This document shows, in pieces, positions 10,661 through 64,000 of a stretch of 64,000 nucleotides of DNA. The stretch lies in contig NMRA01000321.1 of NCBI GenBank assembly GCA_002633005.1, positions 182,724 to 246,723 of the forward strand. Direction: 5' to 3'. The notes below the pieces were generated by a model that saw only the letters and a list, made by a program, of their open reading frames with translations, ran no database searches and was not told where the DNA came from. Numbering within the stretch: the stretch's first letter is position 1; the number at the start of each line of letters is the position of its first letter. The translations under genes and the position numbers were made by a program. This DNA comes from Phoronis australis. Lineage: Eukaryota > Animalia > Phoronida.

Positions 10661-12127
10661 ATCTTGTAGTGTGGTAATCTGCAATAGAAGATTCGTTTTT
10701 CTTGGCACACCCTCGTAAATGGGCCCTCGTTGGGTTATGAGAAATTGCCAAACGTTATGCTTCCCAACACAGTCTAAGCTGCCCTAAAATAATTATGGGA
10801 GGCCTCGCTTTACGTGACTGAACGGCGTGCAGTGAAACCTCAGATGATCGTCATTCTATATAATCTTTTAAACAACCCACATCCCAAAAAATGCGTAATA
10901 TTTCATATTGCTACCTTGGCCTGAAATTTCCAGACAAGAACGCTTAAACTTGGTATATTTTAGTTCATCATAAAGTAACGCCTTTATTTAAGCTTTTATC
11001 GCTTGTGACAATGTATTTCGTGAAAGTTGAAAGCCTATAAAAGTTGGTTTTTAACCATTTTGCCAACTACTGGGTCAGCCGTGACATTTGTTGAACCTTC
11101 ATGCAAAGGTGGAACAATTTACACAAACCATAAGAACAGATTGGGGAGTGATTCATAAGCCAATTTTCACATGGATTCAACCATAGGCGAATTTAGGGAG
11201 GTAGGGGGCACGAGGCAAGGGTAAGAGCATCAAGAGCATGAGGAAATATTTAGTTTATTAATTAACCCCTGGTTATTCATATCATACGGCTGAAATAAGA
11301 TTTACAACGCGTGCAGTTTTAGTTTGTGTGTGCGTGTGTGTGTACATGTACATGTATGAGTGAGAGCTAGGGTGGGTCTCAGACATGATTTCAAGTGTCC
11401 GATTCAGACATCCGGCGCAATCGTAACGGAACTAAGGCTAAGTAATTGTGCTCCCGGTTAATGCGCGCGTGATATCCCAGGTGAGTGACAGTGGCGCTCC
11501 ACACTACCATTCTGTTTCTCTCGTCTGCTCCGGTGTGAGCACTAGGAAGAATATTTCATTTTTTTCAAAGAAAACGAAAACTGAGTAACGATGAAGAAAC
11601 AGAAGCTGCTGGTAATATGTAAATTTTTATCGAAGCCTAAGTGAATCACTTAGAAACCTGCAAGTCTGTCTTTGTCATACATTAAACTAAGAGGGTATTC
11701 TAAGCAACCGTGTGGTTAATGCCAATACAACGCAAACATGGATTTGGTGTTTTGGGCAACTGCAGACAATTTTAATCACAACAACTTTTGCGACAAATTG
11801 GGTGCACAAAATATAAAGCGTGCAATAAGCACTACAGAAAGAACTAGGTTCGTGCGCAAACGCTGAGGACCATAAACAAGTACACAGCATGTCTCGTGAA
11901 ATTGCATGTTGAAGCGTGGTGGCGCAGGGGTAGACTACGTGCGCACTCGCAGAAAGGTCGTAAGTTCAATTCGGTGGCATTTACAAAGTTTTCAGTGGTG
12001 TTTTCTTTTTTCTTTGATAATACTTCAGAAATCACGGAAATGCTTGTTTTTAAAAGCAAAAACAAAATTTTCGCTGATTTCCCCCCATTTCGTTCTATGC
12101 GCCTCTACAGCCGTGCTTTGCACGATT

Positions 12128-12371
12128 ATATAATAAAAATAATTGCAGGCGGTCTGATACACGTTGTATCATACGTGCGCAGGCCTCGCATGTGGGCCCA
12201 TTGCACTGATCACCTGGAAATATGTTTATGCTTTATTGATATATGGTTAAAACCGAGCTGAGGAGCTAGAAACCTGGCTCAAGTGTTTAGCAGTGTGACC
12301 TGGTGGGATTTGAACCCACGACCTCGAGTAAAGAAAGCGGGCACTTATCAACGAGGCCACACTGCCTCCTC
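12128..12371 (-). mobile_element. tRNA-derived SINE, full length
   Basis: Minus strand has an A-box-like tggcctcgttga, B-box ggttcaaatcc, a structured 3' domain and an A/T tail. It is flanked by the 12-bp TSD ctttgcacgatt (12116-12127, 12372-12383). Related copies at 42716-42905 and 53652-53759. Confidence 0.85.
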
Positions 12372-13868
12372 CTTTGCACGATTGTTCACGAGACAAACTT
12401 TTGGGCCCCCTTTATGATATCCTAGATCCGCCATTTTCCACCAGTCATTTCTGATCAGTTTCCGAAGTTGACCGAATCTGGAATTATTCTATCGCCGTAC
12501 ACACAGGTATAACCTTACGGGCATCACTCAAGAAACAACCCCCTGTAGAAACAAGAAGTGAAGCTGACCACGTCCCGATCCCAGAATTTCACAGCGCGAC
12601 AGAATTGTATATCAGGTGACCTTAACATCACCCACCTCATCTGAACCAACCGCACGGCTGGGTGGAAATTTCATGTGCATATGGAAGCCTACCCGGCCCC
12701 TGCCAGTGTGCACTAAATGGAACCAAATATAACACATTCAAACAAACGCTCAACCTAGAAAATTTTCGGACTAGTGGCCTCTCGGAATAGTCAACCCTGG
12801 AACAATGAACCTTGGGAGTAGAGAAATTTCGGACGCGGGACTGACGAATGCTAAAATTATTACTATCGGCCATTGTTGCAATTGTTTGATGTTTCCCAAG
12901 AAGACACTATGTGGCGGAAAATGCTACTCCACGATTCATTTGATGTGCCTGTGTTTGAATGTTGATACTGTCGGATTTCGTGATGTTGCTGAGGGATTTC
13001 TAGAACTTGTCAGGTAGCGCACTACAGGGTTGGTGCTAATGTTGTCATTGGTGTTCGGGTGACAAAACCGATCGAGAAAGACTTTAAGCTTTGAAAGCAC
13101 GCACGTGCACTGAGTACATAATACTTCACAACTAACCAGAACGATAATCGTTCTGTTTCGATGAAATTAGAAAACCATTTTTCTAGCGTCGAGTCACATA
13201 CATGTAACTTAAAAAACAGACAACAATATTTGGTTCACATTTCTGTAGTTTTGGGTTAATCAGAAATCTATAACGTTTTATCATATACATTGCAAATTTT
13301 ATAGCTTGTAATCATCACGATATCTCTAATGATACAGTGTAGGATTATGGAATCCCGTGCGAACATTTTAATCAAACTTAGGAACAAGCACGAATGAGGC
13401 CATGAGCATTACAACCTCTTGGGAAAGTTCGGAGCAAAGGTGGGGATTAAAAAACTCAGTCATTGAAAGATCCTGAAAACACATCTGTAGAGTTGATGAA
13501 GTCAGGTCCCCATCAACAATGTGTAGATGCGCACTACTCTACGCTAACGCCATTTTATAGTAAACCACTGTCTGATAATCAACAGTTGACTTCTGATGAG
13601 GCCAAGGGAGATCAAAAGTCAATTTACCCCGCGCATTTCAAAAATTGACTAAAGTTAATTAATTACAATTATGCAGTTTAAAATTCACTTCAAAGGTGAT
13701 CATTGTCCAACAACAAATTGAAATCGACCAGGCGTTGATTTTTAAGGCTTTAAAAAGCTGCAGCAATTAACGGCAGTAATGTAATAAAGAGTTGGCTCAT
13801 CATTTGCGCTATTTGGCATGTTTAAAACTACGCGTCTTGCCCCACTCTCAACGTGATTGTGATTTCAG

Positions 13869-13990: not shown

Positions 13991-14763
13991 GTAAGCACTT
14001 GAACAGTTTAAACGCAATATACACAACCACACATGCAAGGTTTTTCAGGGTTCCATATTTCTGTAGTTATTGGAAACGTAAGTTCGAAACGTTAGTTGTT
14101 TGTACTCGGATAAAAGTTCGTCATTGAGGTCGATACTTCACAAACATAAGTTCGAAAATAACAGCTCATAATTCGTAGCCCTTTCAAGCGTCCCAAAATA
14201 TTCTCAAACAATCAGCGTAAAGTGGTTCATATGATATCATCGTGACCACGAAATTGCTTGGAAGCCACACTGCATACATGTAACAGCTGAGTGCAATTTC
14301 TTGAACGTTCTTCATTAGTCGATCTGACTCGTCATGTGCCGTGCGACAAAAATCCCGATCAGCAAGAACTGTTCTAGACTAGGTGCAAAGCTGTAAACCA
14401 TCTACAGCTTTGCACCGATGTGGGTAAAATCTTACCCCATAGTATTGTCAGTAAAAGCTACACCGCTCTTCTTTGAGTGAACCAAATTATTTACCACTGT
14501 TGGAAAAATTGGAGTTCTACCGCTCATTTACTGATCAAATTGAAGTGCTCTCTTTTGAGTCGGCTTTTGACGATTACGTCACCTGACCTGAACAATTTCT
14601 TTCCCCCCAGTACTTTGTGCTTCTATCAACTGCTCTTCACTGCCACGAGGTTCTGTACATGTAAAAACAAATTGTCGGAACTGGTTTCATTTCGTTACCT
14701 TTTTAGTATTTTTAAGACCAGCAAAACGAATTTTAGAACAAACTTTGCTGCTGCGAAGTTTAA

Positions 14764-17911: not shown

Positions 17912-17935
17912 TAAGTTTCACGACGAGGTGAATAA

Positions 17936-18235: not shown

Positions 18236-18243
18236 AATCATAC

Positions 18244-18480
18244 CCGGCCTGTATGGAATTTCGTTTTATAACGGATATCAACTCACAGTGTTACCTAGCC
18301 ATATTTTGCGATAGTCTCCAAAAAGCTACATGTAGCTGATAGGCTACAATTAAGATCTGCAGTGCGCACTTCGACGTTTCGTGTTACTGTTCCGGCCCTG
18401 CGTTTAGGGAATCCAGCACAAAACGGAATATTCTGATGTGGGTCGTTCCCGTAGGCCTAACGGAATTCTCATACTGGCGG
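18244..18480. mobile_element. MITE with ~22-bp imperfect TIRs
   Basis: ccggcctgtatggaatttcgtt and aacggaattctcatactggcgg. Confidence 0.5.
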
Positions 18481-21400
18481 CCCATATCGGAATATATTTT
18501 TTATTGGCTTTAAAGCTTTTAATTGATTACAAATCCTTATAATTCGGTATGTTTCCGTTCAATCCAGACTTTATTTCATAGTTTTAATTTATTACAGATA
18601 TTCAAAACGTTGTGTTGCTATACAATTTTCGATTTTTTGAGGCTGATCGAGTCAAAATGGCGGCGACTACGGGTTGCAGGATTTCAACGCGAATTATTTT
18701 GAAAATTAAGTTTCTAATATAAAACTTTTAATGAATTTAAATATAATTGCTTTGTAGGAAAATATCAATCAAGCATGCGTTGTAACGTTTCCACGTACAT
18801 GTATTTTAACGGCCTATTGTCGCCGAGACCCTAATGCTGGACACACACTCGACAGCAGCCACACAGCGTTCACACTTCGGCTTCAAGAAGACATGAACGC
18901 AAAGTTCCTAGCATCCAAGTTTCTGTATCAAGCAAACTACACCTTATAATAAACATTGTGAAATTGCCTGAAAACAATTTGGACCAAGCGTCTTGTTTTT
19001 TCCGGCTGTTTGGGCGACCCCAGTTACCCTCGCTGTGGATTCCCGTACGGGCTCGTATTAGAATGTGTGTTAATATTAATTGACATGAAGTGAACAATTA
19101 ACGAATTTCCACGTATTTGCACTAAATTAAACGACCAGTCATTGATTCCAATACGATGGAGACACGGTAAAAGCCAAATTCGTTGTCACGATGATGTCGT
19201 AGACTTCGATTGGTGCAAGCGCCATCTAAAGTTTTTTTTGGCGATAAAAGGTGCTCGTGATGGGGTTGCTGTATTGTAAAAGGCCACTTTAATTGACGTC
19301 GTGTGTTGATGTTTTTCATCAATACACTAATTTAGATAGAGAAAAAAGTAGGTCTACTCTGCATCCACAGCTGTCAAGACGTTTCTCACAATATCGTTAA
19401 GGCTGAACATGGGAACCCCTTTTTAAAGTTAGTCAACAAATTCGACAAATACACTGGTCATTTACACAAGAATAAGCACCGACCGAGGGCCCTTGGTGGA
19501 TGCCCGGAGTAGTTTGGCCTCTGATGTCTTTTGTGGTCCAGTCGTTGAACCACTTTCGACAAGCTATCATGCTACTGTACATGTCAGGAATTTTTCAAAA
19601 AGACATTTTAAGTGTTAAAATAGGGATTCAGAATTTTACCGAAAGAAATTACATTTGGCCTAAATGAAAAGTTTAGGCCCTAAAACAGGTCTGTTTATGT
19701 AGCTTTTGAAAAATTACTCATGGTGTACATGTATGTAAGTTTGTCTGTGTTTAAGTGTTCGTGTTTTAGTGCGTGTTCCTGCGCGTGTGTGTATGTGAGT
19801 ATTACTACTGTTTCCAATAATAATTCAATTGTGCCAATGTTTACCGGTTGCCCGGATGCCATTTTTCGATAACTAGGTCTCTGAAAAGTTAAGCCGAGAG
19901 GTATCTTCTGCATTTACGTATACCCGTGAAATTAAATTTTAAAAATCGAACAGTTTACCCTGTAAAACAAACCCGGTCCAGTACTTCGTGTTGCTGACAG
20001 CGTACAGTGCATTTCCCAATTGTCCCGTTCTTGACGGACTGTAGCACTTTTTTGATTTTTTCAGCCATCCTGCCTCACCATCTAAATGTTCCGCTATTTG
20101 ACAAACGGCCCAATTGACAAATCATCATATACACTGTACTGTTTTTATTTCCCAAGCCACGTAGGCATATTTGTGCGTTCGACTAAAACGACAAAACGGG
20201 ATATTTCAAAGTTGTTTTCGGCACTCGTAATTTCCCATTCAATTAAAACACACTACAAAAATCACTCTCGGACATTTTGGGTGTTACATCTGCGGTTCGA
20301 CAATAACGCTGTCGGTACGCGTTCGTGAGTTGCAGCGAACATTTCACCCTTGTCCCGCTTTTTAATCCAGTTGTACCGTTTTTTCGTTCTTGAATGTTGA
20401 CCTACCACTTTCCAAAGAGTTACTGAAACCATTCATCACCGGGTACCAAATTCCCGAAGTCTAGTGTACATATTTTTACCAATATTTTATTGCATATCTT
20501 CGGATAAAAAACCCAAACTTAACGCTTAAGAGGAATTCAATTCCAGATATCAAACACATCCAAAATCGCTAAACTCTAAATGTCACATGTGAATTTATTT
20601 TAGCTGGTGTTTCTTACCGCTAAGCCATCACTAAGTCGGTATTTGATTTACTAATAGGGCGTCTTGGCGACTGCAGCAATCGTAAATATCTGTTGGCGAG
20701 GTACAAGGTGACGTGAAAGGGGCGGTGCTGGTGTTCTCTGCACATATTTTTGCATCCGTTATACGTTGTTTCCGGACCGACAATGTAGACATCGAAATTG
20801 GAACTCCGGTGTAAAACAGATATTCTAAAGACGAAAACAGACTCTCGTACTTTCAAAACTGCTAACCAGCCCAAAGAACAAGAATTCCGACCTTGAAAAC
20901 ATGAACATAACACGCTGGGACTAAAACAACACTCCTGCACGTTCTGTCAAAACACCGTTTATCTCAAGAAAATAGTACTTGTACGACATTTACCGATTTC
21001 ACATTTTGGTGACAAAATAAATATTTCTACTTTAAATATTGATATATTTTGTTTTTCTGCATGAGAATTTTAGACAACTTACGACCGATTAGCGTACAGC
21101 TCCTTATTCTCCTGCTAAAGTTGTGGTGCGATCTTTTGCGTCACGTTTTGGCCGAGTTTCTTTTGCCCCAATTCTTCAATCAACTGGTTTTCTTCCACGA
21201 GGTTGCGTACATTTCACAAATTATTGGAACTGGTTTCATTTCTTTTCAATATTTTTGTGTTTCAACCCCAGAAAACCAAATTTCAGTTCGAATTTCGTAA
21301 CAATGTTCCGCCAAAAAGAGCGTAAACGCGTTGAGTTCTGAAATTATGATTCCAATTTCCATTTTAATGATTGACGAGAAGTTAAAGTGCACTTTTTTGA

Positions 21401-22001
21401 AGGCAAAAGCGATGGAACTGTTAACGGTTCATGACTTTTGAGTGATTAATTCTTGCAGTCCATTTCAAAACTCGGAAACACGACTGTACAGGAATTAATG
21501 CACTATCGAGAAGTGAATCGATGTGGCCTATTGACAAGATGTTTAAAGCAATTCATCAATTATGACACTCGAAAGTCCAAATAATATTTTTGTTTCTGAT
21601 TTTGAAAACATTTTGGCCAAAGTATCTGAAAATAACTAAATATTCACCGAGATAACAACGTGTTGAGAGTATAGATTATGTTGACGTTCGCCAGCAGACC
21701 AAAAAAAATCAAATAAAAAAGTCAATATTTTACGTTAATAAGTTACGTTAACTTTTCGATGATATTTAAAAAACAAATGCAGAAAACAACTAGAAAGTAC
21801 TTGAATATGGTTAAACTTAAAGTTTCTGGCTACTGACATCGTCTCAGAATGATGCCGTCTCGGGAAATTTTAAAAACTGTCCGGATTTCTCGTTTAATCC
21901 CCGGAACATGTACCCTGTACATGCATATTTCCCACAACTGGCGTTTCCGCTGCGTACATGTAGAAACACGTGTGGGCTTCACTAGCACGTTATCACTGCA
22001 G

Positions 22002-22098: not shown

Positions 22099-23108
22099 GT
22101 AAGTTAAGTAACAAGGCTTAAAATTGCTCTGTAATAGCAGGTTCATGGATTGACGGTTGTGCCAATGTGTGGTGCAGCTCACAGTTCTACTGGGTCCAGG
22201 TGTTTTTTGTTGAACAAAAGGACTCCGAGCTTTGCATGAGCTGGTGTCTTTCACACTCGAAAATAGCGAAGTGAAGCTCACCATGGACGACAGGACTGAG
22301 TTTTTGTAACTCTACTAGACGGAGATCAGCAGCTGGACGGGGAATCAGCACACGCCGTGCGTGGATCATAAAGCGATTCACCCCTTCACCCCTGTTCGTC
22401 CCCTCGTAGAGTTACTCCTAGTCAGTTTTACTGTTTTAATCGTTTTGTAGTGAGCCACCAACAGTAATACTGCTCATAGCTACATGTAGTTAAAAAACGG
22501 ATTATCAACTTTGTTGATCCCTCCATGCAATTCACAAAGTTTTCGCGTCTTAATTTGTAGTTGTACATTACCTTAATTTGGGAAATGATTTGAATGAAAA
22601 AACCATGAAACCGATGTTGCACTCGAAATTTCAATTATATCGAATTTTGGGTCCTCTTTTGGAAAGCATGGGGACCAAAACCAAGGAATGTGCAACTTAA
22701 GACCCCCTTGACTTCAATGGTAGGTACGCAGTCACTAAAATCGTTTACACCCCAAAGCGTGATTAAAGACCTGCTGCCTCTCCAGCTAGGTAGTTCACTT
22801 CCACCAGATGTTTAATGTACATGTACAGTACAATCCGGATGGCATTTCACAGAAACTGTTACCGCATGAAGCCACAAAGGACCCAAAGGGAAGTCAGTGG
22901 CACACACAATCTATGCCACGCAATAAGCAATTTCCTCGACAATTGTCTGTACATGTATATGGTTTACCTACGTGACAATGCCCCAAGTATCGTACGTTCA
23001 CCATCAGTCTTTGTAGGAACCGTCGGTCCCTTTATGTGTTTTTGCACGCTGATGGACGTGTAGGAAGAATACAATAAACTAGGCCTAACTCAAATTATGA
23101 CCTTTCAG

Positions 23109-23282: not shown

Positions 23283-23960
23283 GTAGGCACCTACATGTAC
23301 ATAGATATGAGGTGTTAGAAACCTGGGATCAATATGTATATTACTCCCAGTTGGAAACCTAAGTTTAATAGCAGAGTACTTGTCGCATAGGGGTTACAAA
23401 TTGTGAAGGGTTGCAGTATCTAAATTACATGAACGTCTTCGGAATAATCCCATCACGGACTCCAGGGCGGGAACAATCGAGTAGATCGTAAAATACAATG
23501 TAGTCGAAGTTTTTTTGTATCAGGAACATTCACCTGTCGTACTGAATTTTGCTGCCGACAATACCCCATCCTTAGATATAAACAAGGGGTCTATGGGATA
23601 CAAGGAGATCTTTCTGCAGACGACGATTTTAAACGTTTCCCCAAGCTCATAGGAAATGATTATCAAAACTGCAAAATGTTCAACCAGTGGAGACGATCAA
23701 AAACGACACCACTCCTTTTGGGTTCTATATTTGTGCGCAAGATACAGTAGTGATACGAGCCCTCGTGTACTCATCCTACGTAAGCTTGAGTTCGACTTTT
23801 TAGTCTCTAACTGGTTTGTACGCTTCGGGTTTATCTGCAGAAAGAATCGGTAAACGACGTTCAACCCAGTGAATATCGTGAAATTACTCCATTATCCATA
23901 AATATCGTTATTACACGAGATTACTCTTGTACATATGCGCGTTTCATGTTGTCGTTTCAG

Positions 23961-24226: not shown

Positions 24227-24264
24227 TCAAACCGCTTGTCATAGACAAGAATTGGAGCAGCTCC

Positions 24265-24405: not shown

Positions 24406-24439
24406 TGCTCACTAATAAGGCGGAAGAGAGCCGTAAAAA

Positions 24440-24866: not shown

Positions 24867-25480
24867 GTGGACCCGCCCCTATGTGAATCGGACTCAAATG
24901 TGGACATTGTAAAGCTCGAAAAAGAGCTGACTTCGCCCCAAGTTATTAAAACACTCCGTGATCAACTGTTCCAGCCTGCCCTTGATGATATAAAGGCTTA
25001 CAACCAGTCAATCATTAACCAGAAAAACAAAGAAATACAGCTGCTGAATAAGCAAGTCAACAAATTGTCAGTAAATCTAGACAACTTAGAGCAATACTAA
25101 AGACGTAATAATATAGTTATCTATGGATTCAAAGAATCTTTAAATGGAAAACCTGGAGCCAAAGACAATATTGCGATTGATTCCAAGGGACGCAAACTGG
25201 GTCTTAAAATTAACCCCCAGCAAATCAGGAAATCTCACAGACTGGGGCCCAAACATGGAGCTGGAGATTTGCGAAAAGATCGTCCTGTAATCTGTATATT
25301 TATGTCATACATGTACAATACCAGAGCTGCTTTCCTTCACAACAGAAGTTAACTCCGCAAACTGAATTTATCATGCCCGATCTGCCTCAGTGAAAATCTC
25401 ACGAAACAACGGTCCCTTCTGTAAGGCAGTTGTCGCCGCCTCGTGCAATCCAAAACCATCGCTAAAGTTGCATATTTTTG
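24867..25480 (+). pseudogene. LINE ORF1 remnant (coiled coil plus L1-type RRM; CR1/L2 group)
   Basis: Heptad-rich stretch, then LDNLEQY*RRNNIVIYGFKE, ..IRKSHRLGPK, RPVICIFMSY..NTR; stops and frameshifts present. Confidence 0.8.
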
Positions 25481-26899
25481 AGAAATTTGAGGTTGAAGTT
25501 ACCTAATAATCACCAAAGAGCTTACTGAACTAATACATGTAAAAACAACAATTTTCCCATTTTTCTGTAAAACAAGTATTATGGCTCCATCAATGTCATT
25601 GTATTGAACGATAACACACTCACATTACATGTTTCACTATTGTAGGCTATAATTGTAAGCATTGAAATGTAAAAAAGTGTAACGTGAAACCTAGTGGCAG
25701 AAATACGAACTAAGTTGGAATGTTACTAGGAGGTTATTCTGGCAATGTGTGGCCACAAATAACACACAACACATGAGACTGGGCAAAATTTGTGCCTCAA
25801 TGACTGATCCATTGACCAGTGGTGTAAAACGTAGCTTGTTTGCATAATACACCAGAAGTATGTTATACAAAAACAATATAGTTGAATGATCTCTGCGAAT
25901 GTGCGCACAGACAACAAAAATAATAAATAATTATGACAGCGTTTAGGAAGCAGTATGAAACAAATACATAGAAATGATCAAACTATGTAGTTTCTATGAC
26001 TAATTCAACAAATAAAATTCATAGTTGATGCGACTGAAAGTAAGTCAGCTGATATACCAGTTAAGTGATTGAAATTCAATTTTTTTAATCAGATGCTCAT
26101 ACTCTAGTAAATCGATTTAAACTTAATGTATTTAAATGGACAAGGGCATCCCCTGTCCTCGATTTACGGGGGGACGCTGGCCAGTTAGGCACTTCAATTT
26201 AATTACCATTGCTGCCACCTAAGTAATTAAAGTTGACGAAAAATTGAGAGGAGGTCCCACTTGTCCAAGTATTACGGCAGGGGATGACGGCCACTTGGGC
26301 ATCTTGATTGCAAGCATCACCTCTATTTAACCTTTTCATAAAATTTTGACTTAAAGTTCTTTAAATCACACACACAGTATAACGCCTTCTTATCCCTTGG
26401 CGCAAACAGTTTTGGTTTGGGCAAATGAAGGACGGAGTGTTCGAAAAACAGGATTGCAGGAGTATTTCTTTAAACTGGGAACAAATAAAAACATTAAGAG
26501 CCTCCTAAGTCATTGATCCTCTATGCAAAAGAGGTACTTCTAAACTTATAGCAACATGACTGATGGTTTAATCAGTGTGATGTATAATTTGCCAAAAAGC
26601 ATCCGGCACATGGAGGACCCATGGTATGATTGCAATCTCTACTGGGCCAGCGGTACTGTCTAAGGCCTGGGCAGCCACGGTCTGAACAAATTAGAAAACA
26701 TTACTGATGATAATACTGAACACACTTGGAAAACACGGAAATGTAAATCGCAAAAACACGTACCTGTTTTTCAAACCTATAAAGTTGTTACTTCTTTCTC
26801 TTTTTGGAAATGTGCTTGATAATATACTTTTCATTCTCACAAATAATGTACTCATGTATCAGAATGTTCCTATCATGTTCAGGTTAATTTGGTGTTTCA

Positions 26900-29400: not shown

Positions 29401-30859
29401 TGCATCTACAACCGGAATTCTCTTCTTGTTTTTGTTAAGGAAAGCAACTCTTTTATGAGTATAAACATAAATTTAGAACTGCTTTTCATAATTTTGATAA
29501 CCCAACAACCCTGACTCAATTCTCCCTTCCCCACGAAAACAAAATAGCATTGTACATTGTCTTTTCCTCAACTCCAACAAGTTTAGGCACAACTTTAGTA
29601 ATGACTCTCAATTAATTCCTCCCAAACAACGTTGGCAAATTTTTATGTATCGGTTATAAATATTATTGCTTCTGATTTCCATACATGTATCTGTACATGT
29701 TTTTGTTTTTTATTTGTTCATATTAGCATATATGCATATTGGAATACTTATGTTAGATATTACTTAAATGTATATACCTCTATGTATATTACTTTTACAA
29801 CCCAGATACAATGCTTCGCGATTTCTTGGTTTGTAATTATGTTTTTGTATGTTCTGTTTATTGTTCAATAATTATATATCACCTTAAAAATCTGACTGGT
29901 CAATACCCTGCCCTGGCCCACTAACTCAAAATCTTGGAAATGTCCCTGAGTCCAGTGCTTGAAACAAAAACAGAACAGCTGTTTAATATGTTAAAGAACA
30001 TTTCAAAATTGCGTTACTCGTTTATATATGTATGTGTTTTAGTTTTTTTAAATATGTAGTGTGGCATGAAATAGTTGTTTTTTATTATTCTACCCTAGGT
30101 TTTCATTATTTCAAATATACATACTACAGCTCTGATCATGCTATTTTGAACCTGAAGTACATCTCTTCATTGATTGGATTAAGTTTTCTTTCCTTGTCTC
30201 CTATTCACGAATTCGCCGTTAGTACTTGAAAACGAGGAGTTATGTCCTAACTACAATGGTTCTACATGTTTGTAACCCGCATACTTTCACGTTTGTATTC
30301 CTTTGTGTTTAGCATACATGTACCTTCCGGTGAAGCTAAATCCCCCATTTTTGAAACGTACCCCTATTGTCTAACTCAGAAATCATATTGGTAATCATTT
30401 CAGTTCAAGCAACTCCTTGATTGGTCAGTTTATTATTTGGCAAGCAATCTGATTGATCTACTGTATTTACCTCTTTGCTAGTTAGTTCATGTTCTCACTG
30501 TCACTGCCAGAAGTTCTTAATACAGGTACATCAGTCACTGTGATATCTCGAACCACTTTGAATTTTTCGATGTAACCCACAATCTGAAAAAATGTCATAT
30601 ACAACATCGAACATTAATGGCATTTCATCATGGAAAGACGATATTCGTGTGTGGTCAAATAGTATGTATGGTAACATTTAAACTGTTTGGTAGAATCGAA
30701 AGCAGTTGAGGACAATCGTTGAAAATTTTAGAAGTTTGAAATCATTCAATTATTCACAGATGTTGCGTTGAAAAGATTTTACGCTATAATTTGTAAAAGG
30801 ACATTGCCTATTAAGCGTAATCTCATGACATCAACAATGAGTGGAACTCGGTCTGCATA

Positions 30860-45418: not shown

Positions 45419-47754
45419 ATCTCTTCCTGTAGGCTTGTCGGAGGCCTATCGACTTCAAAAGCATTGCGATAAATATAACTACAGTTGACAAAACGCGTGG
45501 ATTTCGTTGAGCGGAGTGGTCCGCCATCTTGCTGATGAACCATGTTTATCGAGATGTGTGTGTACTGTGTATTCTCTAGGAACTAATATTGGTAACAACA
45601 CGGGATTTCTAGTAAAAACTCATAGCTTTAATGTTAGGATCATCAAGTGCAAAGTAGGATTTTTAGAAAATCATCCAAGACAATCATTGGATACTTGAAC
45701 ACAGAATTAAAGGGTCTTTAAGTGTTAAAACACTTATCTTTAGTTACAGCAGAAAACATCAAAAATAAAGTTTGACTTCTGGTATTAGACCCATAATCGC
45801 TGATTTTTTGGTCTTTCGAAGCTTAAAAATTGAAACTGAAATAGAATGATTTTGTGAGTGAGAATACGATTTCAGAAACAATACTGTTCAACTTCATTTG
45901 GTCCCTAGAACACCCATTAAAGTCGAGTCGTTGTCTTTTACCTGACTTGTTCTTAGTCCGATGTGGAAATAATGACCTTGTGTTTTCTCCAAGATTTTTT
46001 TTTTCTAGAAACGAAGAAGCACCGAAACTCACTACAAGATTAATTTTTGGGAAGTTTTACAAAGTGAACACCAATTCGAAGATTCATTAAATATAGCCAG
46101 GTTATTGGGAACTGGGCAGGATCGAAGGAAGGGATACTGCAAGAATACTACACCCCACAATGCTAGTTTGGGACTGCAAATGTGTGGTTTCTGCTGATTT
46201 CACTGAGATGGGACAAATGTTATATAAACTGGCAAGCTATTAAAATCTGCAACTGTCTTGCTTGAGAAAAATCATCATTTTGATATTCTGTCCTCTTTAT
46301 GGTCTTCTGATTATCACAGTGTACATGTACATGTATCAATGCCTGGGTATGTAGGACAGGGCAGGTAGAGTTTACGACCATTGAGTTTTGTTATATATAA
46401 ATGTACTAGTAACATAAATGTGTGCCTGCAAATGTCAGATCCATCTGAATTGAGGGATTAAATTAGAGTAGGTTGAAATCTGACAGTTGGTTGAAATCTG
46501 ACATTTGCTGAAGTGAAGTGCATGTACCAGTACGGTACAGTAACTCTGTACCAACCAGACTTTTCCGACTGTCACGGTGTGATTTTACTGCGTGATGGTG
46601 ATATTTTTGAAATATGAATTAAATGTAAACTTAATTGTTTGAAAGGGTTACAGTATCTCATTGTGTTGTTTCTGTGTGGACATCTTTTGTTGTTCTTGTG
46701 TGTGCTTGTTATAAACAGAAAAAAATCTGCGATTCCGCACATTATGTGCAGATAAAATGGGCACATTGGTTGGTGTTGAAATAATACTCAAAAATTAATA
46801 ATGCGCACGTCTTTTGAAAACTGTAGTTCCTCTAAAATACATTGCAGCCGGCGTGTTGTTTTACAACAGAGACTATGACACATCTGTCTCAACTGTGAGA
46901 CCATGTCGTTTCAAACTGTACAAATTATCTGTTCACCAAGCCAAGATGAATTAGGTGCTAGGACAAGTAATACATAAGACAATTTAGCAAGAGCGTGGGG
47001 GAAATATTGAGTTTATTAACTAACCCCGGTAATTATCATGCGGCTGGAACAGTATTTAACATGGACAGTTGTAGTTTGTGTGTGGGTGTGTACGTGTGTG
47101 TGGGTGGATCAGACCCTATTGCAAGTGTCCGAGCCAGACCATCGTTTTCCCGTTTTTTTAGTCCTCCGTTTGTTTTTCAGTGAAAGGTTCACAATCTCAG
47201 AAATTTGAGCCCCCTATATTTTGGGCTGGATGACCGACACAGAGTGTTGCCCCCCCTTATCAGTGATATCCTAGATCTGCCACTGTAATACTAGATAGTT
47301 ACCAAAATTATCATTGAAGTAATGTTCCTTGAGACAACTCAGCACCCTTTACTTGCGTTTTATTTCTTTTTTGCATATTGATGTAATTGTTATTCCTTGG
47401 TACATGTATAAACTTGAAGTAGGCAATTCCAATCACCTTTCGAGAACGGGTTTGTGCAAATGCTAACTTCGGACCTCCGGCTTCGGCCGCTCAAGCAAAG
47501 GTGTTTTCAGGCACACGCGGCTAACCGATGTATATGTGCGTGTCTTACCAACCACTACAGGGTGTTTTTGGTGTCAGTGGTGCATTCTTCCTTTTTCATT
47601 GAAATACTTAATGTCAACTTATCAGTTTCTATAACTCTATCCTTTTACAAAATTTTGCTCCGAATTTTTATTCAAATTCACCTATGCCCTCAGTTCCGAA
47701 TGTGCACATGTACACAAATGACTGTACTTCGGGAGCAAGTTTTCTGTTATACAG

Positions 47755-49246: not shown

Positions 49247-50979
49247 TGTCTTTTTAATTATGTCGCTAGGTCAGTTACTGTATCTATGTTCAGTAGAGAG
49301 TAGAGTTTTGTTCAGAAAGTATGAACGCAACGGAATAAAGACCGTGAAAAATGAAAAGTGTCGTGTATTCAACAAATTCTGTATGTACACAAATATGTAC
49401 AGTTCCATTGCTTAATTGCTGCATACAATGACACGACTTCACATGCACGCATTCTGCGGTTTTTATGCTCATCGATTTCCATGGGTTTCTACTATTTTTT
49501 CTACCTAAAGTTCAAGTGTTTCTCACAAACGCATGCCTCGAATCTTTTCGTTAGAATAAATCATGTGGCGTCGGGTCAAGGAATTTTTAGACCCAAACTA
49601 AAAACTTGGGGAATACAGTATTGTAATGGCGCGCCGGAGGAGCGGCCCCTTTGACAGCTGATCGTCTTGTCGGTTTATAAACAATGAAAAATTCGTACTA
49701 TACAATTATAGCGACGAGAAATGTTAATCATGCAGGTGTATAATATCATTTTCTAAACTTTATACATTTCAGTGATTGTTTTATCGACTAAGCCGGCAAA
49801 ACCTACCAGGCCCTAACAGCACTCCTTGATAGTTTCAGCCAACGCCTTAGGAATTTTGTCTTTGCAATGGAAGGGTCAAATATTTACATTGCTCTATGTT
49901 ACCACAATTTTAAAACCTCGTTAGTATTTAAAGTTTCAAATTTTATTCTGAAAATTCCCTGGCTTCCATAAGGCCACCGTGCTTTTGTTTAGGGGAAAGT
50001 TACTAGTTCGTATCACTTAAGGATACACCTCTCTGTACGTCAGGCTGAATTAGCCCCGGAATCGGAAGCTGTCCCATAGCCATTAGTGGCTTCACACGAA
50101 CAACCACACAATGTGATTTAGAAGAACAATGATAATGCTTTAGCTGCAAATCTCGGTTATAGAAAAGTCGACAAAAGTACGATTCGCGTGACCGGTTTTC
50201 TAATTCGTGCCTGTCAGACATTGGAGTCGTATCAGTGCTACTATTAATAAGTATGGGTATTTTCAATCAAAGATGAACAAGGAGACAGTGCAAACAGTTA
50301 ATCCCTTTATTGGCAACATAGAAATACATGAGAACAAACAACGTTTCCATGTGACTCGGGATCATGTTTCGCGTATTTACATGTACTCAGACCCATTCCA
50401 TGACGGCGATAGTTGGCTTTGGGATACCAAATAGCTCAGAAAGAGCGTTATAGTCATGGGCGCACCAGGGGGAGGGTTCGGAGGGGTCGAACGAGACGAG
50501 ACAGAAGTCCACAAAATCCCACAGGAAGTCGGCACGGATACACATTTCGTGGGCCTGAACCTAGTAGTCCCGTTTTTTTTTTCTTTTAGTCCTCATTGAT
50601 TTATTTTATTAAAAGGTCGGCACACCGAAAAACTCGAGCCCCCATACTTTAGGCTACACTGTAGGTGCGCGCATGAAATAACAATCTTTCATCCAATAGC
50701 TTTGAGACAGTTTTGCATATCTTCCGATGTCCAAGACGAAGGCGTTGGCATTTGCCTGAAAACAAAAAAGGAAATGAGTATTAAGAAGCAAGAAAAACAA
50801 CACATTTGCCTATGCAGTATCTACTTTTATCACGTTTTGTGTATCGTACCTCTCGGTTACATTTTTCGTACCCCGGGTACCATACCCGGGACCTGTCGTA
50901 GTACAACACTCGTGACACGGACCTAGTTTCAAACACGAGGGTTGAATATGTTTGGCTCGCGACTTAGCAATTAAAAATC

Positions 50980-51875: not shown

Positions 51876-52956
51876 TACAGACTGAGAATGAGCTACCAGA
51901 TGACACACCGGTTTACCCATTTGCTGTTCTTGTTGTCGTCTGATCACATTATTTAGGAGGGCTAAAATTTACATCAACATGTCGGGTCGTCTGCTCGACA
52001 TTTCGCTTTGTTTTCTGTTATCGCTATCTGAGGTCGCTAAATCACTCTTTTGGGTGGCGAGCAAACGTAATTTGTTGGGAAATAACGTGGCAGGAAAACG
52101 ATACCTGGTACGGAACCGGTAACTTTCTCCTACATAGCGTTCGTCATCAATATGGCAGACCGCGTGTCACGTGCTGTTTGGCTTGCGAGTACAGTCAAGC
52201 CCAACATACATGTATGTATGTAGCTCATTCCTCGCAAGAATCACTGGTAAACGTCTATTGAGGTAATCCTCAATAAAGGGTGGATTTCCGGAACAAAATC
52301 ACTCAAAATGTTGACTTGTTTCCCGGAAAATAGTTGGGTCCCCTTTTCTAGTATATTCTCTAAGTGGGTGGGTATCCAAAAATTCAGCTGCACGCCCGTG
52401 AAAATGCTATCACGTAACCTCCGTCTGTCACGCCAGTCTGATAGAGAAGCCATTTTGCTGAAATCACCACAGAAAAAGCATAAACACTTTGCTCAAGTTG
52501 CTAACGCTCTGCACATTATATTGGCTATGTGAACCTCTTATGTTGACACACAGTGTAATACTATCGCCGTTTTTAACCACGGAAATTTCATTATGATATC
52601 TATGGGAATACAAACTGTTATTGTTTTTCCCAAATCGTTACTTCTCAAACCATAAAACGAGGCAATGAATGAATAACACAGACTGCGAATTGGATAAATG
52701 TAGTAGGCAAGGTTTGAAACTTAGTGAGGTCGGCCATGCCAACTGCTGTTGTGTTAGAAGCGTGGTCATAGAAACATATTGGTCTCCAAAATTTAGTCAA
52801 TACAAGGGCGGATCCAGGGGGGTCTGGACATTGTTTTTAACCAGAGTGGTAAAACACGGGAACATCTTATTTTTAGTGAATTCCTGCAGACTCATTGCAT
52901 TTTTAACTTTCATGATGCCTAGTCTACGCTGGAGGCCAGAACGAGGCTAGATAGTT

Positions 52957-58651: not shown

Positions 58652-59828
58652 AGGAGAATGCCACCCGATTTAATTAGCCTTTTACCGTCTTAATCGCTCT
58701 GTATCCACATTGCCTCTTATACGGTCCACCACACCTTGCCGAGAGATGTCGCGTAACGTGTGAGGAAGGTGAGAAACGACGCAGCGACGTCGGTGGTTCG
58801 TCTGCAGACTGAATGCCGCTGTATTTCAGTGCATCGTTCCATCTTGTTCGAACTATGAAGCTGCGAAGAAAGTGTGTATACGTGTATCATTTTTTCGACT
58901 TCCTCGAGAGCCTGAAATGCTTAGGAAGTGGCTCGCGGTAGTGAAGAATGAAAGGTATGTTGTCAATAGCAAGTGTGAGGTCGTAAACCATCTCCGTGTC
59001 TGTGGCGGGTATTTCGTCGACAGTGATTTCTCTGACAAATTCCGGCTTACCAAAGAACAATCCATACGTTCAGTTGCCTATGCATGTTCACGGCGCCTCT
59101 CTAGTATTTCTAGATCAGTGTATTCCGGTTCGAACTGATAGCCTGTGAAGCCTAACGATCCGACCCGTGAAGTCTTCGTCGGATGAGCTCTTGACTAAGT
59201 CGGGTTTGGCGCCGGGCGAGTTGCCATGTAAACGTTTATTATTCTGCGTTGTGTGTCAAAATGTATTATTCTCACCCTAAAATGACCCTAACCGATGCTT
59301 ATATGAAACTGAAACAAGACCTGTCTTATTAGATACAAAAATGCCTTGGAGTGCTCGTGAGTGCAAATGTTTTGAGAGGCCAGCAATGAATAAACCACTT
59401 TCCGGCTTTTGACGGGGCACTGAGGCCGTGTGAGCGCATGCTAGAAAACTGTTGTGTAACAATTACTGGATTTTATATGCTATCGTCACATGTTAGGGGA
59501 ATCTTTATTTAGAAATACAAATACATTATTCAGGTCATAGTTACTGTTCAACCTTTGCCCTGACGGTCTGTGGAAGGGAACCCGACGTCGCGGCCCCCAC
59601 AGGCAAGTAAATTTTCAGTTTCGTGGCTAATTCACATAAATAATTACGTGCACATAATTTCTTTTGCTCACTATTATAGTCTTTTCGTGACTGGAGGTTT
59701 AGTTTCCAACTCAAGCTGGTTTATGTCTGTGCCAGTCCCGGCGGCCGCGACGGGCAAGATCGGGTTCCGAGCCACTGGACGGGATAACAAGCGTTTTGTG
59801 TGTTTAGAACCAAAAAATCACAAGTATA
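58652..59828. mobile_element. Non-autonomous Kolobok transposon, copy 3 (inverted, truncated)
   Basis: Starts gtaa|AGGAGAATGCCACCCG and is reverse-colinear with copies 1 and 2. Best-preserved THAP: VSFFRLPREPEMLRKWLAVVK..HLRVCGGYFVDSDF..RL (58872-59075). Confidence 0.85.
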
Positions 59829-61157
59829 AACTAGAAAAATTATTGTCACGGCGTGACAATAATGAACTCTGCGCGTGCGTATTAAAGGCATTGTTATGGG
59901 AAGTTACTGACAGCAACCCGCTTACCAATATGAAAAGGAATTCTATAAAATTATAGGAGTAATTACATGTTAATATTTTGATGATTTTTCCACTAACTGA
60001 CCTCATCCGGTGCACTGTGAACCCCGATGAGGGAATAATTGTAAAACCAATTTAAAGTGTGGTTGATGCTAAGAATCACAGAGGTTTTACTTTAAGCACT
60101 TAAGAATACAACATGAATGAATTGGTCAAACTTTCAGAAGAAAAATGCACCTAATGACCCAGAAATTAGAATTCAAACTCAATCGTATTTAGTAAACAGA
60201 TTTGTAATTTTGAAGTCTCTAACTCAAACTTTTCATTTTGTACTCAATGACCTTTGACCTATTTTTTTCTGATTGGTTAGGCCTATTGCGTAGTGAAGTA
60301 GGTTGTTCAATTGGCATGTTGACTTACACTAGTGTGCTGAAATTGAAAAGAATTCCGTGAAAAACGTAAGATATATAACATTTTGAACGTTAGATGACAT
60401 TTGCACCAATTGACCCTATCCGGTGTATTATAAGCGTTTTTAGGAGAATTATTGCAAAGCCCAATGAGAAATGTGTTTAATGCTGAGAATCACAGTTGTC
60501 TAACGGTTGACACATCAGTATACTTGGAGAATGAAAAGGTCAAATTTTCAGAAGAAAAATGCACATAATGACCCCATGTTTGCACTAAATGACCTGAAAC
60601 TTTGGATTCCAAATTGAATTACCTGTGCCAATCAGACCTATGAATTCTAAGTGTCTAGCTCAAAATTGTAGTTTGCACCTATTGACCTTTGACATGTTTA
60701 ACCTGATTGGATGATCCGATTACTTAGAAAAGTAATTTTTAAATTGCCTTTTTGACTTATACCTGTGTACCTATTTTGTAAAAATAGCTTTTAAAATAAA
60801 GAAGGAGTAGCATTTTGAAAATTACATGACCTTTGCACTAAATGACCTCTTCCGGTGCATTATGGTATATGATTATATAACGAATCAAAATTTATGTTCT
60901 GTCAAAACTCATATGCTGAATTTAGAGACTGTACCTGCACCCAATTTGGAGTTATTAAGCCTCAAAGTTGGTCGGAAAAAGAATAAGAAGAACTAGAAAT
61001 ATTATTGTCACGGCGTGACAATAACGGACTCTGCGCGTGCGTATTACTGGAATTATTATGGGAAGTTACTGACAGCAACCCATTTACCAATATGAAAAGC
61101 ATTTCTTTAAAATTGTAGGAGAAATTACACATTAATTTTGATGACCTTTCCACTTAC
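59829..61157 (+). mobile_element. Helentron/HINE-like element with internal ~420-bp repeats, followed head-to-tail by a second head
   Basis: ~165-bp head (aactagaaa plus palindrome attattgtcacg-g-cgtgacaataat) at 59829 and again at 60991. tgacc..tccggtg units at ~59998, 60411 and 60843; tgacctttgacc motifs; aagaataagaag just before the second head. Confidence 0.55.
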
Positions 61158-64000
61158 TTTCTGCATAGTAATTTTATCGAACTATTATGATACTGCGTGT
61201 CCGATGTTATGTATAGAAGTTGCTCAGGATAGGTGTCCCGTGTCAACGGGTCGTTAACCCACTGCAGGCGTTTCTGAATGAATCTCACTTCCAACTTTGC
61301 GAAAATTCGAAAATGACGAATTTGATGCGGATTATTGTGTAGGTTCTGATGGCTTTTTGACATGTTTAAATGTCCTAAGAACTGTTGAAATCAAGCGCAA
61401 CTAGGTATTTAGGTTATTTCCCTGTGACCTGCTTGAAAATGTCGTTTAGTTTATGTCCAGTTTTGATTAAATTTCGATTATCGCATCTCAGAAATCAGGC
61501 CCGTAGGAAGGCAAAATTATTGGGGGGGGGGGGGNGGCACAAACCATTTCGACGTTGCCAAACACCCCCAACCCCCATCGTCACCCCCTCCGCCACCCTC
61601 CCGTGTTCACCCGATGCCACCATATCTGTACATAATCTCCCACGTCCGCCCTATTGGTAGGGACACAGTGGCGGACTTAGAGGTAGCCCAGGGGCCATGG
61701 CACCCCTAAAATTTTCCAAGATTCTATTTGGCTGTTCGGGTGAGCGAATTTCTGATGGGTAAAACCCTGGCTAATACTCTGCCCTTCCACCCCTCTAACT
61801 CAAAATCCTGAATGCGGTCCTGAGACAATCCCGGGGATGGAGCCATCAAGAGTTGAGTAACCGTGAACCAATTCAGAGAGTAAGAATGGACCTAGGACCA
61901 GTACATTGACCAGTAGCGAGGAACTGCCTCAAGTAGCTACATTGTATAGCTGAGATCTAACAGCTTAAAAATACGAAATTCCTGATGATCTAAACCTAGT
62001 TGCTGGTCAGCACAGGTGTGATTCACTTGAGACAGGCAGCTCGTACCTGGCTGCTCTAAGGTCAAGATTCGTTTTTTTGTGATCCAGTTTCGAGAATTTT
62101 TTTTCATCATGATCATTCTTTGATGGAGTTCCTTGAAAAGACGAGGTCCCGAAGTCCCTTGGGGTTGTTTCAAAATGCTTAGTTGAAACATGACCGGTAG
62201 TCCAATTTCTGGCGCCTGGGGAAAAGGATAGCGTGTCCCAAAAAATGTACATACTTCCTGAACGCCCGGAATTCCCATTCAGTTGCCGTGGATCACTGAG
62301 ATTCTGCGCTGGCCTACTGCAAGGTCACATGATGTTTTTAACATGGTTACGTCAGTCATGGCGTGATAGCAATCAATTCAGTTTTGAAGAACAAAATTTC
62401 ATTACTACTGGAAACAAAAAACACCAAGGAACTGCGAAGACAACTTTTCCAAGAAATGGGTTTAATTTCATTTACTTAAGGATTTTTAAAACCCTTTTTA
62501 TCTACGGTTTGAGAGTCCAAATTTCATCAGTGTCTTTGAGAGTGATTTCAGATATGCAAAAATTGACGGGGATCGAATTATAGAGTTTTTCCAACTTCAG
62601 ACTGCAATTAAATTCACTAAGACATCATCATTTCGAACAAGATCAACTTCTTATTTTCAAAAACCATCTGTGAATCTATCGATTTTTGTAGATTCATGAA
62701 CAAGTAAATCAAAAGCAAACAAATTTGTTTATCAAAACGGAATGTTATAAACAATTTCCGCATACACAGGCCCGTAGGAAGGCTGAAATTAATCTATATT
62801 ATGGTAATGACCACGGATTTAGATTGTCTATATTTATGTAGCGAGCTACGACAATTAGTATAACCAAAAATAGGAATTAGAGCCTGTACTTCGTCTAGCA
62901 AGTAGGTGAGACGAACTCTTTATAGAATATTTTTCTAATTGGATTTGATATGTCTTACAACTTAAAGTTTGTAATGCACCAAGGCCATTCAATGAATGTA
63001 TATTGTGTTCATTGAAATATCTTTAGGCAATCATTAGTTTCATCAGAATGATTAAAATTTGACTTGCGACAATATTACGTAGCGTTTTAAGACACATGTT
63101 CATATTGACCTAATTCAGCATTTAATTCCAAAATTCAATGCGCCAACGCCACGGATATTTTTCAAGTTTGACATGTGTAACAACTAACTACACATGGTTT
63201 CTAGAACGTTCTAATGTTTCAATTTACGTTTAGCAACTGTAAGAGACGAAACTTGATGTAATTGCAGAAATTCAAAATCAGTAATAGAATGGCTGCAGGA
63301 CGGGATTGAACTGGAACCTTCTGGTACAACACTTCTGGGCGGCCGGTGGCACCAGTGGATTATTAATTAAAATGCGTTTGCCTGACTTACTTGAGTGAAT
63401 CTATGTAATATTTCTGATGTTAAAATGTTTAGTGCCGATCATCACGAATTGTTGTGTCGCCTCTCCCTCCCCCCCTCCTTCCCTCCGGAGAGGGTTCCGC
63501 ACGAGACAAATCTTCCTCCATCCTAGCTACATGTACGCCCCTCAGGATGTACTCAGAAGTCCGTGCCCTGACTGTTGCTTACTTCTGTATGCATTATGTT
63601 GTACATTGCTCCTTGCTAGTTCAAAGGCTTAGTTTCCCCCCTCATATTTACCGTCAGTCTTAATGAACTTGTACGTAATACAATAGACACTGTATACTGT
63701 TCGTCTTCTTCATATTTTCTAAACTTAGAATATGTACATGTAATGCTTGTGTAAAAATGTTGCACCTCCAATTTGGTTGATATGAATTCTGATGAGGCTG
63801 ATCATCGTTCACATATATCAGTCTGATTATCGTTTACATCATTATTCTTAGGATCATTTTGGTCAGTGACAAGAATTCGTATAAATTACTAGGGCCGATG
63901 AAAAAACTTATATCTTATATTACACCATTCGTTAATATTAATTCTTATCAACATGTTATAACATGTCATACCATTCGTAGAAATAGTCGAAACTAAACTA

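What the first reader, a model, noticed from the sequence alone, without database searches (positions are those of the whole stretch)
11343..63742. Pervasive TA to TACATGTA 6-bp micro-insertions across the whole window
Seen: the palindrome TACATGTA occurs about 38 times by eye (e.g. 13199, 14275, 18327, 22481, 25308, 33313, 35551, 41775, 47401, 52207, 63735). It includes tandem TACATGTACATGTA at 11343, 44231 and 46322. A rough base-composition estimate gives about 2. Paralogues show these are insertions at a TA. Kolobok copy 2 has aaa-TACATGTA-ttgg (35551) where copy 1 has aag-TA-ttgg (15793), and copy 3 also lacks it. In the tandem duplication, ct-TACATGTA-tct (45112) matches ct-TA-tct (43864), and 44666 and 43620 are likewise exact 6-bp extras. 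I saw none in the FReD exons, the mariner or the intact PLE ORF. Established: Tc1-family elements with CA..TG ends duplicate TA and can leave TA-CA-TG-TA when both 2-nt overhangs are kept on excision. Inference: a very active cut-and-paste element with unusually uniform repair, or an unknown process, has marked the genome about once per 1.7 kb and re-targets its own footprints.
Basis: partly seen in the sequence, partly recalled or inferred. Interest (0 to 1): 0.85.

Follow-up and report, generated by a model that had tools for sequence, protein, structure and literature searches.

The report
Six-letter transposon exit scars at TA
The eight-letter word TACATGTA occurs 38 times in this stretch of animal DNA, about 24 times more often than chance, and half of the sites that can be checked are clean six-letter additions, likely scars left when a Tc1-type jumping gene hopped out of a TA, although the jumping gene itself was not found.

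Summary
TACATGTA occurs 38 times at 35 loci against 1.6 expected. Of 8 loci with a paralogue or homologue, 4 are clean +6 bp: 35551, 43620, 44666 and 25308, a two-residue in-frame insertion in a LINE ORF1 relic absent from 8 of 8 homologues. Three are longer but not by a clean 6, and one (14656) is not +6. Flanks favour A-Y-R|TA (16 of 70 half-sites, 4.8 expected), close to the Tc1 target AYA-TA-TRT. Tc1 leaves this same scar in 24 of 103 in-frame worm germline revertants. An excision footprint is therefore the best reading (0.65).

Limits: no donor element was found, no whole genome is held, polymorphism is untested, and the sites cluster rather than covering the window. The usual +4 Tc1 scars are not enriched, so the repair uniformity is unexplained. 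This scan noted the same word earlier in bivalve-like, sea-urchin and other animal DNA (unchecked AI notes). Verdict: new variant of a known kind, interest 0.5.

The parts
11343..11356 (.). Tandem TACATGTACATGTA at the end of a (TG)n run
   Evidence: paralogue at about 47090 is 20 bp shorter, not a clean 12
13199..13206 (.). TACATGTA, no paralogue
   Evidence: bridged by a gap-free contig
14275..14282 (.). TACATGTA, no paralogue (FReD intron)
14656..14663 (.). TACATGTA that is NOT a clean +6 (net +3; paralogue at about 21210 shares TACAT)
18327..18334 (.). TACATGTA, untested
18796..18803 (.). TACATGTA, untested
19726..19733 (.). TACATGTA followed by TGTA (compound)
21955..21962 (.). TACATGTA in intron just upstream of a FReD exon
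22481..22488 (.). TACATGTA, FReD intron
22818..22825 (.). TACATGTA followed by CAGTA, FReD intron
22950..22957 (.). TACATGTA, FReD intron
23292..23299 (.). TACATGTA followed by CATA, about 10 bp into the intron after a FReD exon
25308..25315 (+). In-frame +6 (two extra residues, F-M-S-Y-M-Y-N-T-R) in a LINE ORF1-like relic
   Evidence: 8 of 8 aligned homologues lack exactly two residues here
25534..25541 (.). TACATGTA near the end of the ORF1 relic, untested
29682..29689 (.). TACATGTA in the 3' tail of the LINE relic, untested
30315..30322 (.). TACATGTA
32829..32836 (.). TACATGTA followed by TGTATA (compound)
33313..33320 (.). TACATGTA, 15 bp from the next site
33328..33335 (.). TACATGTA followed by CATA (compound)
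35551..35558 (.). Clean +6 in copy 2 of a TTAA-flanked TIR element; copies 1 (about 15793, reads TA) and 3 are short
38644..38651 (.). TACATGTA, untested
41775..41782 (.). TACATGTA, untested
41877..41884 (.). TACATGTA, untested
43035..43042 (.). TACATGTA
43528..43535 (.). One-mismatch copy TACATGTT, net +6 against the sister repeat (probable decayed scar; aligner splits it 4+2)
43620..43627 (.). Clean +6 against the sister repeat (about 44815, reads TA)
43919..43926 (.). TACATGTA inside a net +12 region against the sister repeat
44231..44244 (.). Tandem TACATGTACATGTA
44666..44673 (.). Clean +6 against the sister repeat (the empty site there reads CA, not TA)
45112..45119 (.). TACATGTA, ambiguous (net +2 against the sister repeat)
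46322..46335 (.). Tandem TACATGTACATGTA in a moderately repeated sequence; reads of other copies show 1-bp gaps here, not a 12-bp gap (inconclusive)
47401..47408 (.). TACATGTA upstream of the PLE ORF
50378..50385 (.). TACATGTA, untested
52207..52214 (.). TACATGTA followed by TGTATGTA (compound)
58879..58886 (-). One-mismatch copy TACACGTA in copy 3 of the TTAA-flanked element where copies 1 and 2 have TA (probable decayed scar; an adjacent A-run also varies)
63528..63535 (.). TACATGTA, untested
63735..63742 (.). TACATGTA preceded by TATG (compound)

Best explanation
The excess TACATGTA words are mostly six-base additions at TA sites, likely the excision footprints of a TA-targeting IS630/Tc1/pogo-type DNA transposon with CA...TG ends that was not found here. 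Steps: (1) SHOWN: the word is 24-fold enriched and 4 of 8 testable loci are clean +6. (2) INFERRED from Tc1 biochemistry: the element inserts at TA and duplicates it. (3) INFERRED: excision leaves a 2-nt 3' overhang on each flank, CA on one and the complement of TG on the other. (4) INFERRED: germline end-joining keeps both overhangs, giving TA-CA-TG-TA. In C. elegans this product does not need ligase 4 and falls sharply without polymerase theta. (5) INFERRED: the element hops on, so scars outnumber elements and none need be present in 64 kb. (6) PARTLY SHOWN: each scar offers two TAs that each have one preferred A-Y-R half-site, which would favour re-use and tandems. (7) ROUGH ESTIMATE: the small one-mismatch excess dates the scars to about 3-4% divergence, younger than the splits between the repeat copies they sit in.
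For: 38 vs 1.6 expected. Same fixed insert in unrelated flanks: clean +6 at 35551, 43620, 44666 and at 25308, where 8 of 8 homologues lack two residues. Two probable decayed +6 copies at 43528 and 58879. Flank bias: A at -3 in 36 of 70 (21.8 expected, p=3e-4), purine at -1 in 48 of 70 (35.2), AYR in 16 of 70 (4.8, p=2e-5). The bias survives removal of the 7 compound flanks (A-3 29 of 63, p=0.007; AYR 9 of 63, p=0.012) and is absent around other TA-NNNN-TA words. The Tc1 target consensus is CAYATATRTG / AYATATRT (PMC9635669 passages). Tc1 excision leaves non-complementary 2-nt 3' overhangs (PMC4490562 legend). The scar TACATGTA was 24 of 103 wild-type, 10 of 36 lig-4 and 3 of 39 polq-1 in-frame germline revertants (its Supplementary Data 3).
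Against: No TA-CA...TG-TA element with inverted repeats in the window above the shuffle level. The resident mariner ends in CG, and its predicted 2+2 scar TACGCGTA occurs 0 times. The commonest somatic Tc1 scars TACATA/TATGTA (78% in worm soma, PMC12632400 passage) are not enriched here (47 vs 40), nor are the Sleeping Beauty scars TACAGTA/TACTGTA (14 vs 11). The worm figures come from an in-frame selection that hides +4 products. Measured ZB and Passer footprints are 0-3 and 0-4 bp and mixed, and rice excisions are mostly messy (8 of 94 perfect). 14656 is not +6 and 3 loci are ambiguous. No 6- or 12-bp gap row appeared at any motif among the rows shown when reads were laid (12 of 354 rows, 12 of 16). 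Indel size alone shows no 6-bp peak. The flank model is estimated from only 35 loci.
Confidence: 0.65

Rival explanations
1. A host or unknown mutational process, with no full element ever present at the site, writes CATG plus a second TA into TA sites. Examples would be an abortive integration, or a domesticated transposase that cuts at TA and inserts only terminal bases.
For: No donor found here. Earlier unchecked notes on other animal genomes, one with a genome-wide count, also report no donor. The product is more uniform than any measured footprint spectrum I read.
Against: The insert equals a documented Tc1 scar and the flanks match a Tc1-like target. I recall no host enzyme that adds a fixed CATG. 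Absence of a donor in 64 kb is expected if elements are much rarer than scars (inference).
Confidence: 0.15
2. The donor is a TA-targeting element whose ends read CATG...CATG and are cut with a 4-nt stagger. The two overhangs would be self-complementary and re-ligate directly, which would explain the uniform scar.
For: It would explain why only the +6 form is enriched and the +4 and +5 forms are not. Sleeping Beauty's 3-nt overhangs anneal in an analogous way to give its fixed 7-bp footprints (bioRxiv 10.1101/659086 passages).
Against: No TA-CATG...CATG-TA element in the window. I recall no Tc1/mariner family with CATG termini. 7 of 70 flanks are TACA or TATG against 0.75 expected, which fits separate CA and TG halves, though target preference or slippage also fit.
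Confidence: 0.1
3. TACATGTA is a selected transcription-factor site, as proposed for Phytophthora (bound by PsMyb37) and for Irx homeodomain proteins.
For: The same word is abundant in Phytophthora promoters (PMC3520976 passages) and is bound by PsMyb37 (PMC11134190 passages).
Against: Here it arises as a length gain inside decayed transposons and in frame in a dead LINE ORF1. One-mismatch neighbours are barely enriched (44 vs 33-36). Later co-option of some scars is not excluded.
Confidence: 0.05
4. The words come from ordinary local mutation: slippage, template switching that perfects near-palindromes, CpG decay of the mariner scar TACGCGTA, or minimal 3' tails of a LINE.
For: 14656 looks like a change from a pre-existing TACAT. 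Tandems and TGTA runs could be slippage. Several sites lie in TG-rich tails.
Against: Control palindromes are mostly near expectation (exceptions are ATGTACAT, which overlaps the motif, and TTCATGAA at 9 vs 3). CpG-decay intermediates and sibling products are absent or rare: TACGCGTA 0, TATGCGTA 0, TACACATA 0, TATGCATA 2, TACGTGTA 4. The +6 sites have no pre-existing TACA to copy.
Confidence: 0.05

Closest known systems
Tc1 excision footprint TACATGTA of Caenorhabditis elegans (PMC4490562: passages and both parts of Supplementary Data 3 read; called rare in PMC3520976, passage)
   Same: Identical 8-mer, +6 at a TA; similar target flanks (AYR-TA-YRT here, AYA-TA-TRT for Tc1, PMC9635669 passages).
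   Different: In the worm it is one of 26 products (24 of 103 under in-frame selection), and the +4 scars dominate in soma. Here only the +6 form is enriched, it marks about 0.8% of TA sites in the window, and the donor is unknown.
Sleeping Beauty, ZB and Passer (pogo) footprints (10.1101/659086, PMC7913693, PMC9976928; passages read, figures not held)
   Same: TA target duplicated; terminal bases of the element left behind; palindromic target with A at -3.
   Different: SB leaves TACAGTA/TACTGTA, not enriched here (14 vs 11). ZB and Passer leave mixed 0-4 bp footprints. Passer's AAG-TA-CTT target has A at -2, which is depleted here (12 vs 22).
Phytophthora motif-1 / AM-20 TACATGTA (PMC3520976, PMC11134190; passages read)
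   Same: Same word, very abundant, with tandem forms.
   Different: Read there as a transcription-factor site, with the footprint idea raised and dismissed. Here length gain at TA is shown by paralogues and homologues.
Genome-wide DNA-transposon excision scars in rice (PMC4423477; abstract and passages read)
   Same: Excision treated as a genome-wide source of small indels.
   Different: Rice scars are heterogeneous (8 of 94 perfect); here one fixed scar dominates.

Membership tests
Tc1-type (IS630/Tc1/mariner/pogo) excision footprint | Derived length gain at a TA, with the TA duplicated | tested here: met
   4 of 8 testable loci clean +6; polarity from 2 of 3 copies at 35551 and 8 of 8 homologues at 25308; 3 ambiguous, 1 not +6
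Tc1-type (IS630/Tc1/mariner/pogo) excision footprint | Inner bases are fixed, independent of the flanks, and equal known element termini (CA...TG) | tested here: met
   Same CATG at 35 unrelated loci; identical to Tc1 product class L
Tc1-type (IS630/Tc1/mariner/pogo) excision footprint | Palindromic target preference with A at -3 and T at +3 | tested here: met
   36 of 70 vs 21.8; 29 of 63 vs 19.2 without compound flanks; control words flat; Tc1 consensus
Tc1-type (IS630/Tc1/mariner/pogo) excision footprint | A resident TA-flanked element with CA...TG termini | tested here: inconclusive
   None in the 64-kb window; no whole genome held; the resident mariner ends in CG
Tc1-type (IS630/Tc1/mariner/pogo) excision footprint | Same locus seen with the element, empty, and with the scar | not testable with these tools
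   Second sample laid at depth of roughly 1-8 in single-copy parts, and gap tables truncated
Tc1-type (IS630/Tc1/mariner/pogo) excision footprint | Accompanied by the +4 scars TACATA/TATGTA, as for C. elegans Tc1 in soma | tested here: not met
   47 observed vs 40 expected, p=0.16; so not filed as Tc1 proper, only as working like it
Sleeping Beauty-type 3-nt footprint | TACAGTA/TACTGTA enriched | tested here: not met
   7+7 vs 5.5+5.5
Transcription-factor binding motif (PsMyb37/Irx type) | Conserved, bound, placed in regulatory DNA | tested here: inconclusive
   Occurs inside decayed repeats and a dead ORF; binding and conservation not testable here

The most novel reading that the evidence does not exclude
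A widespread, undescribed mutational channel in marine invertebrate germlines writes one fixed six-base insertion into TA sites at roughly 1-2% of the point-substitution rate (about 0.55 scars per kb over about 3-4% divergence). It works either through a donor with self-complementary CATG ends or with no full element ever sitting at the site. The same channel may be the true origin of the abundant TACATGTA 'promoter motif' of Phytophthora, later co-opted by a transcription factor.
Probability: 0.22. Interest if true: 0.85.

Novelty: new variant of a known kind. Interest (0 to 1): 0.5.

Why it matters
The scar itself has been known for decades from worm genetics. What I could not find in print (searches, 62 of the open-access library only) is its build-up to about one per 1.8 kb of animal DNA as a single uniform product. 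If this holds genome-wide, the scars are a countable, datable record of past transposon hopping and of germline break repair. They would be a sizeable source of small, frame-preserving insertions, and a trap for motif discovery, since the same word is published as a transcription-factor site in Phytophthora.

Tried and rejected
No whole genome is held, so every count is window-only. A scan of metagenome contigs with a 20-base end of the high-copy TTAA element found 0 loci, so no more DNA of this species was obtained. A scan of viral contigs for a triple tandem gave 3 loci whose copies are local arrays, with no dispersed excess; uninformative. Laying reads at low likeness let repeat families swamp the tables. 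The second laying showed 12 of 16 gap rows, none a 6- or 12-bp gap at a motif; the 1-bp gaps at 46321 and 46326 cannot be read either way. Donor candidates rejected: the mariner at about 16650-17912 (CG ends); the CAGGGG...CACTG element at 17936-18235 (CA...TG ends, but its flanks are not TA here, and the loose-end consensus of 190-306 contigs does not end in TA); the TTAA-flanked element. A 44-bp DNA hit of 25308 to 29432-29475 (E=0.003) was set aside as likely chance. One of 9 ORF1 hits (P0124, short repeated matches) was left out of alignment A1. The FReD search gave 54-70% identity hits across many animal groups and did not place the organism beyond 'animal'. Pfam scans found no further coding relic over a motif. 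TACATGTT at 59964 and TAGGCCTA at 60278 are not +6 against their paralogues. Literature searches returned nothing. Footprint sequences in the ZB and Passer papers are in figures, which are not held.


Full report
Observation. The window is 64 kb of animal DNA at 40% GC. It holds an intron-split fibrinogen-domain gene, a decayed mariner, LINE relics, a PLE-like reverse-transcriptase ORF and several repeats. The protein search did not place the organism beyond 'animal'. TACATGTA occurs 38 times at the positions given, at 35 loci, three of them tandem. It is the commonest 8-mer. Expected is 1.6 under an order-3 model trained with the motif collapsed (p about 1e-38), and the next TA-NNNN-TA word of 136 reaches only p=8e-4. 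Sixteen of the 24 loci in the two stretches laid are bridged by listed gap-free short-read contigs, so it is not an assembly artefact, though those runs may be the assembly's own sample. The sites are clustered: none before 11343 or between 52215 and 63527 (dispersion p=0.016; two such gaps p=1e-4, post hoc), and one per 1.24 kb in between. Absence from the exons, the mariner and the PLE ORF carries no weight, with 1.4 expected.

Are they insertions? Eight loci could be tested. 35551 is +6 against two other copies of a TTAA-flanked element, 43620 and 44666 are +6 against the sister repeat, and each aligns without a gap at the site once six bases are removed. 25308 lies in frame in a LINE ORF1-like relic and reads F-M-S-Y-M-Y-N-T-R; all 8 aligned homologues (8 of 9 hits) lack exactly two residues there. 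This gives polarity that is independent of the DNA paralogues. Against a clean picture: 45112 is net +2, 43919 sits in a net +12, 11343 in a net +20 microsatellite, and 14656 is net +3 with TACAT already in the paralogue. Two one-mismatch words behave as older +6 scars: TACATGTT at 43528 and TACACGTA at 58879 (with an adjacent A-run also varying). Over 6,981 aligned paralogue columns there are 116 gaps; 7 are 6 bp, against 12 of 4 bp and 7 of 5 bp, and 3 of the 7 are motif-type. The signal is therefore in sequence, not in size. Laying reads gave no 6- or 12-bp gap row at a motif among the rows shown (12 of 354, 12 of 16), and single-copy depth in the second sample was too low, so polymorphism and present-day activity are untested.

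Anatomy. With both flanks read towards the TA, A at -3 is 36 of 70 (21.8 expected), pyrimidine at -2 is 43 (34.8), purine at -1 is 48 (35.2), and the joint AYR is 16 (4.8; p=2e-5). Without the 7 flanks that are TACA or TATG the bias remains (A-3 p=0.007, AYR p=0.012), and other TA-NNNN-TA words show none. The Tc1 consensus is CAYATATRTG (PMC9635669, passages), and ZB and SB prefer ATATATAT (PMC7913693, passage). The scar supplies an A-T-G half-site to each of its two TAs. Simulated re-use gives 0.34 tandems under uniform targeting (P of 3 or more = 0.003) and 1.07 with the flank bias (P=0.09); slippage is not excluded. One-mismatch neighbours number 44 against 33-36, a rough age of 3-4% divergence, less than the 12-31% between most repeat copies. 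TACATA/TATGTA (47 vs 40) and TACAGTA/TACTGTA (14 vs 11) are not enriched. CpG decay of a mariner scar is excluded as the main source by the missing intermediates.

Donor. No TA-CA...TG-TA element with inverted repeats stands above shuffles; the one high score is internal to a foldback. The mariner ends in CG. The element at 17936-18235 has CA...TG ends but not TA flanks. No genome is held, and a metagenome scan found no DNA of this species. A hopping element leaves many scars per copy, so absence from 64 kb is weak evidence (inference), but the donor remains the open step.

Mechanism. Tc1 excision leaves non-complementary 2-nt 3' overhangs (PMC4490562, passages). In that paper's Supplementary Data 3 (both parts read) the product TACA+TG+TA is 24 of 103 wild-type, 10 of 36 lig-4 and 3 of 39 polq-1 germline revertants, with total products falling more than 20-fold without polymerase theta. 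The scar is thus a real germline product that does not need ligase 4. That assay selects in-frame products and hides +4 scars, which make up 78% in soma (PMC12632400, passage). ZB and Passer leave mixed 0-4 bp footprints (passages), and rice excisions are mostly irregular (PMC4423477, passages). The uniformity here is therefore the real departure from what is known. Best reading (0.65): footprints of a CA...TG-ended Tc1/pogo-type element repaired with both overhangs kept. Rivals: a donor-less or host process (0.15), a CATG-ended element with self-complementary 4-nt ends (0.10), a selected binding site (0.05), ordinary local mutation (0.05).

Comparison and novelty. It works like the Tc1 footprint. 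It is not filed as Tc1 proper, because the +4 scars are not enriched and no element was found. The same word is published as a Phytophthora promoter motif, with the footprint idea raised and dismissed (PMC3520976, passages), and as a PsMyb37 site (PMC11134190, passages). Searches showed no paper on its genome-scale accumulation in animals; I saw listings only for most hits, and subscription journals are not covered. Earlier notes of this scan report the same word in bivalve-like, sea-urchin and other animal DNA, and analogous TA-GGCC-TA and TA-CCGG-TA words with resident donors. These are unchecked AI notes: they gave me the lead to PMC4490562 and a wording, and are not counted as evidence. 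Verdict: real, a new variant of a known kind, interest 0.5.

Noticed in passing
window 18452, 23080, 54177, 60278: TAGGCCTA occurs 4 times against 0.57 expected (p=0.003, not significant over 136 words).
   Followed up: partly
   Followed up: partly
window 16650-17912: Decayed mariner (HTH_48, Transposase_1) with TA-flanked CGAGGG...CCCTCG ends; left end C-to-T.
   Followed up: partly
window 17936-18235: High-copy 300-bp element with CAGGGGCGGAT...ATCCGCCACTG ends and non-TA flanks.
   Followed up: partly
window paralogue pairs, e.g. 14760-16429 vs 34489-36176 and 43372-44177 vs 44580-45417: 4-bp indels are the commonest class above 2 bp (12 of 116 gaps); several look like short direct duplications or palindromes (AGCT, TCGA, AGCG, TATA), perhaps scars of another kind.
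   Followed up: no
window about 13860-24226: Fibrinogen-domain gene with at least four exons and an 8-kb repeat-filled intron; 12 motif loci lie between 13199 and 25308.
   Followed up: partly
window 1-11342 and 52215-63527: Two 11-kb stretches with no TACATGTA despite normal base composition; unexplained (younger sequence, closed chromatin or local hopping).
   Followed up: no
L001:5001-5020, L002:5001-5020, L003:4955-5020: Three viral-collection contigs carry local (TACATG)n arrays without dispersed copies.
   Followed up: partly
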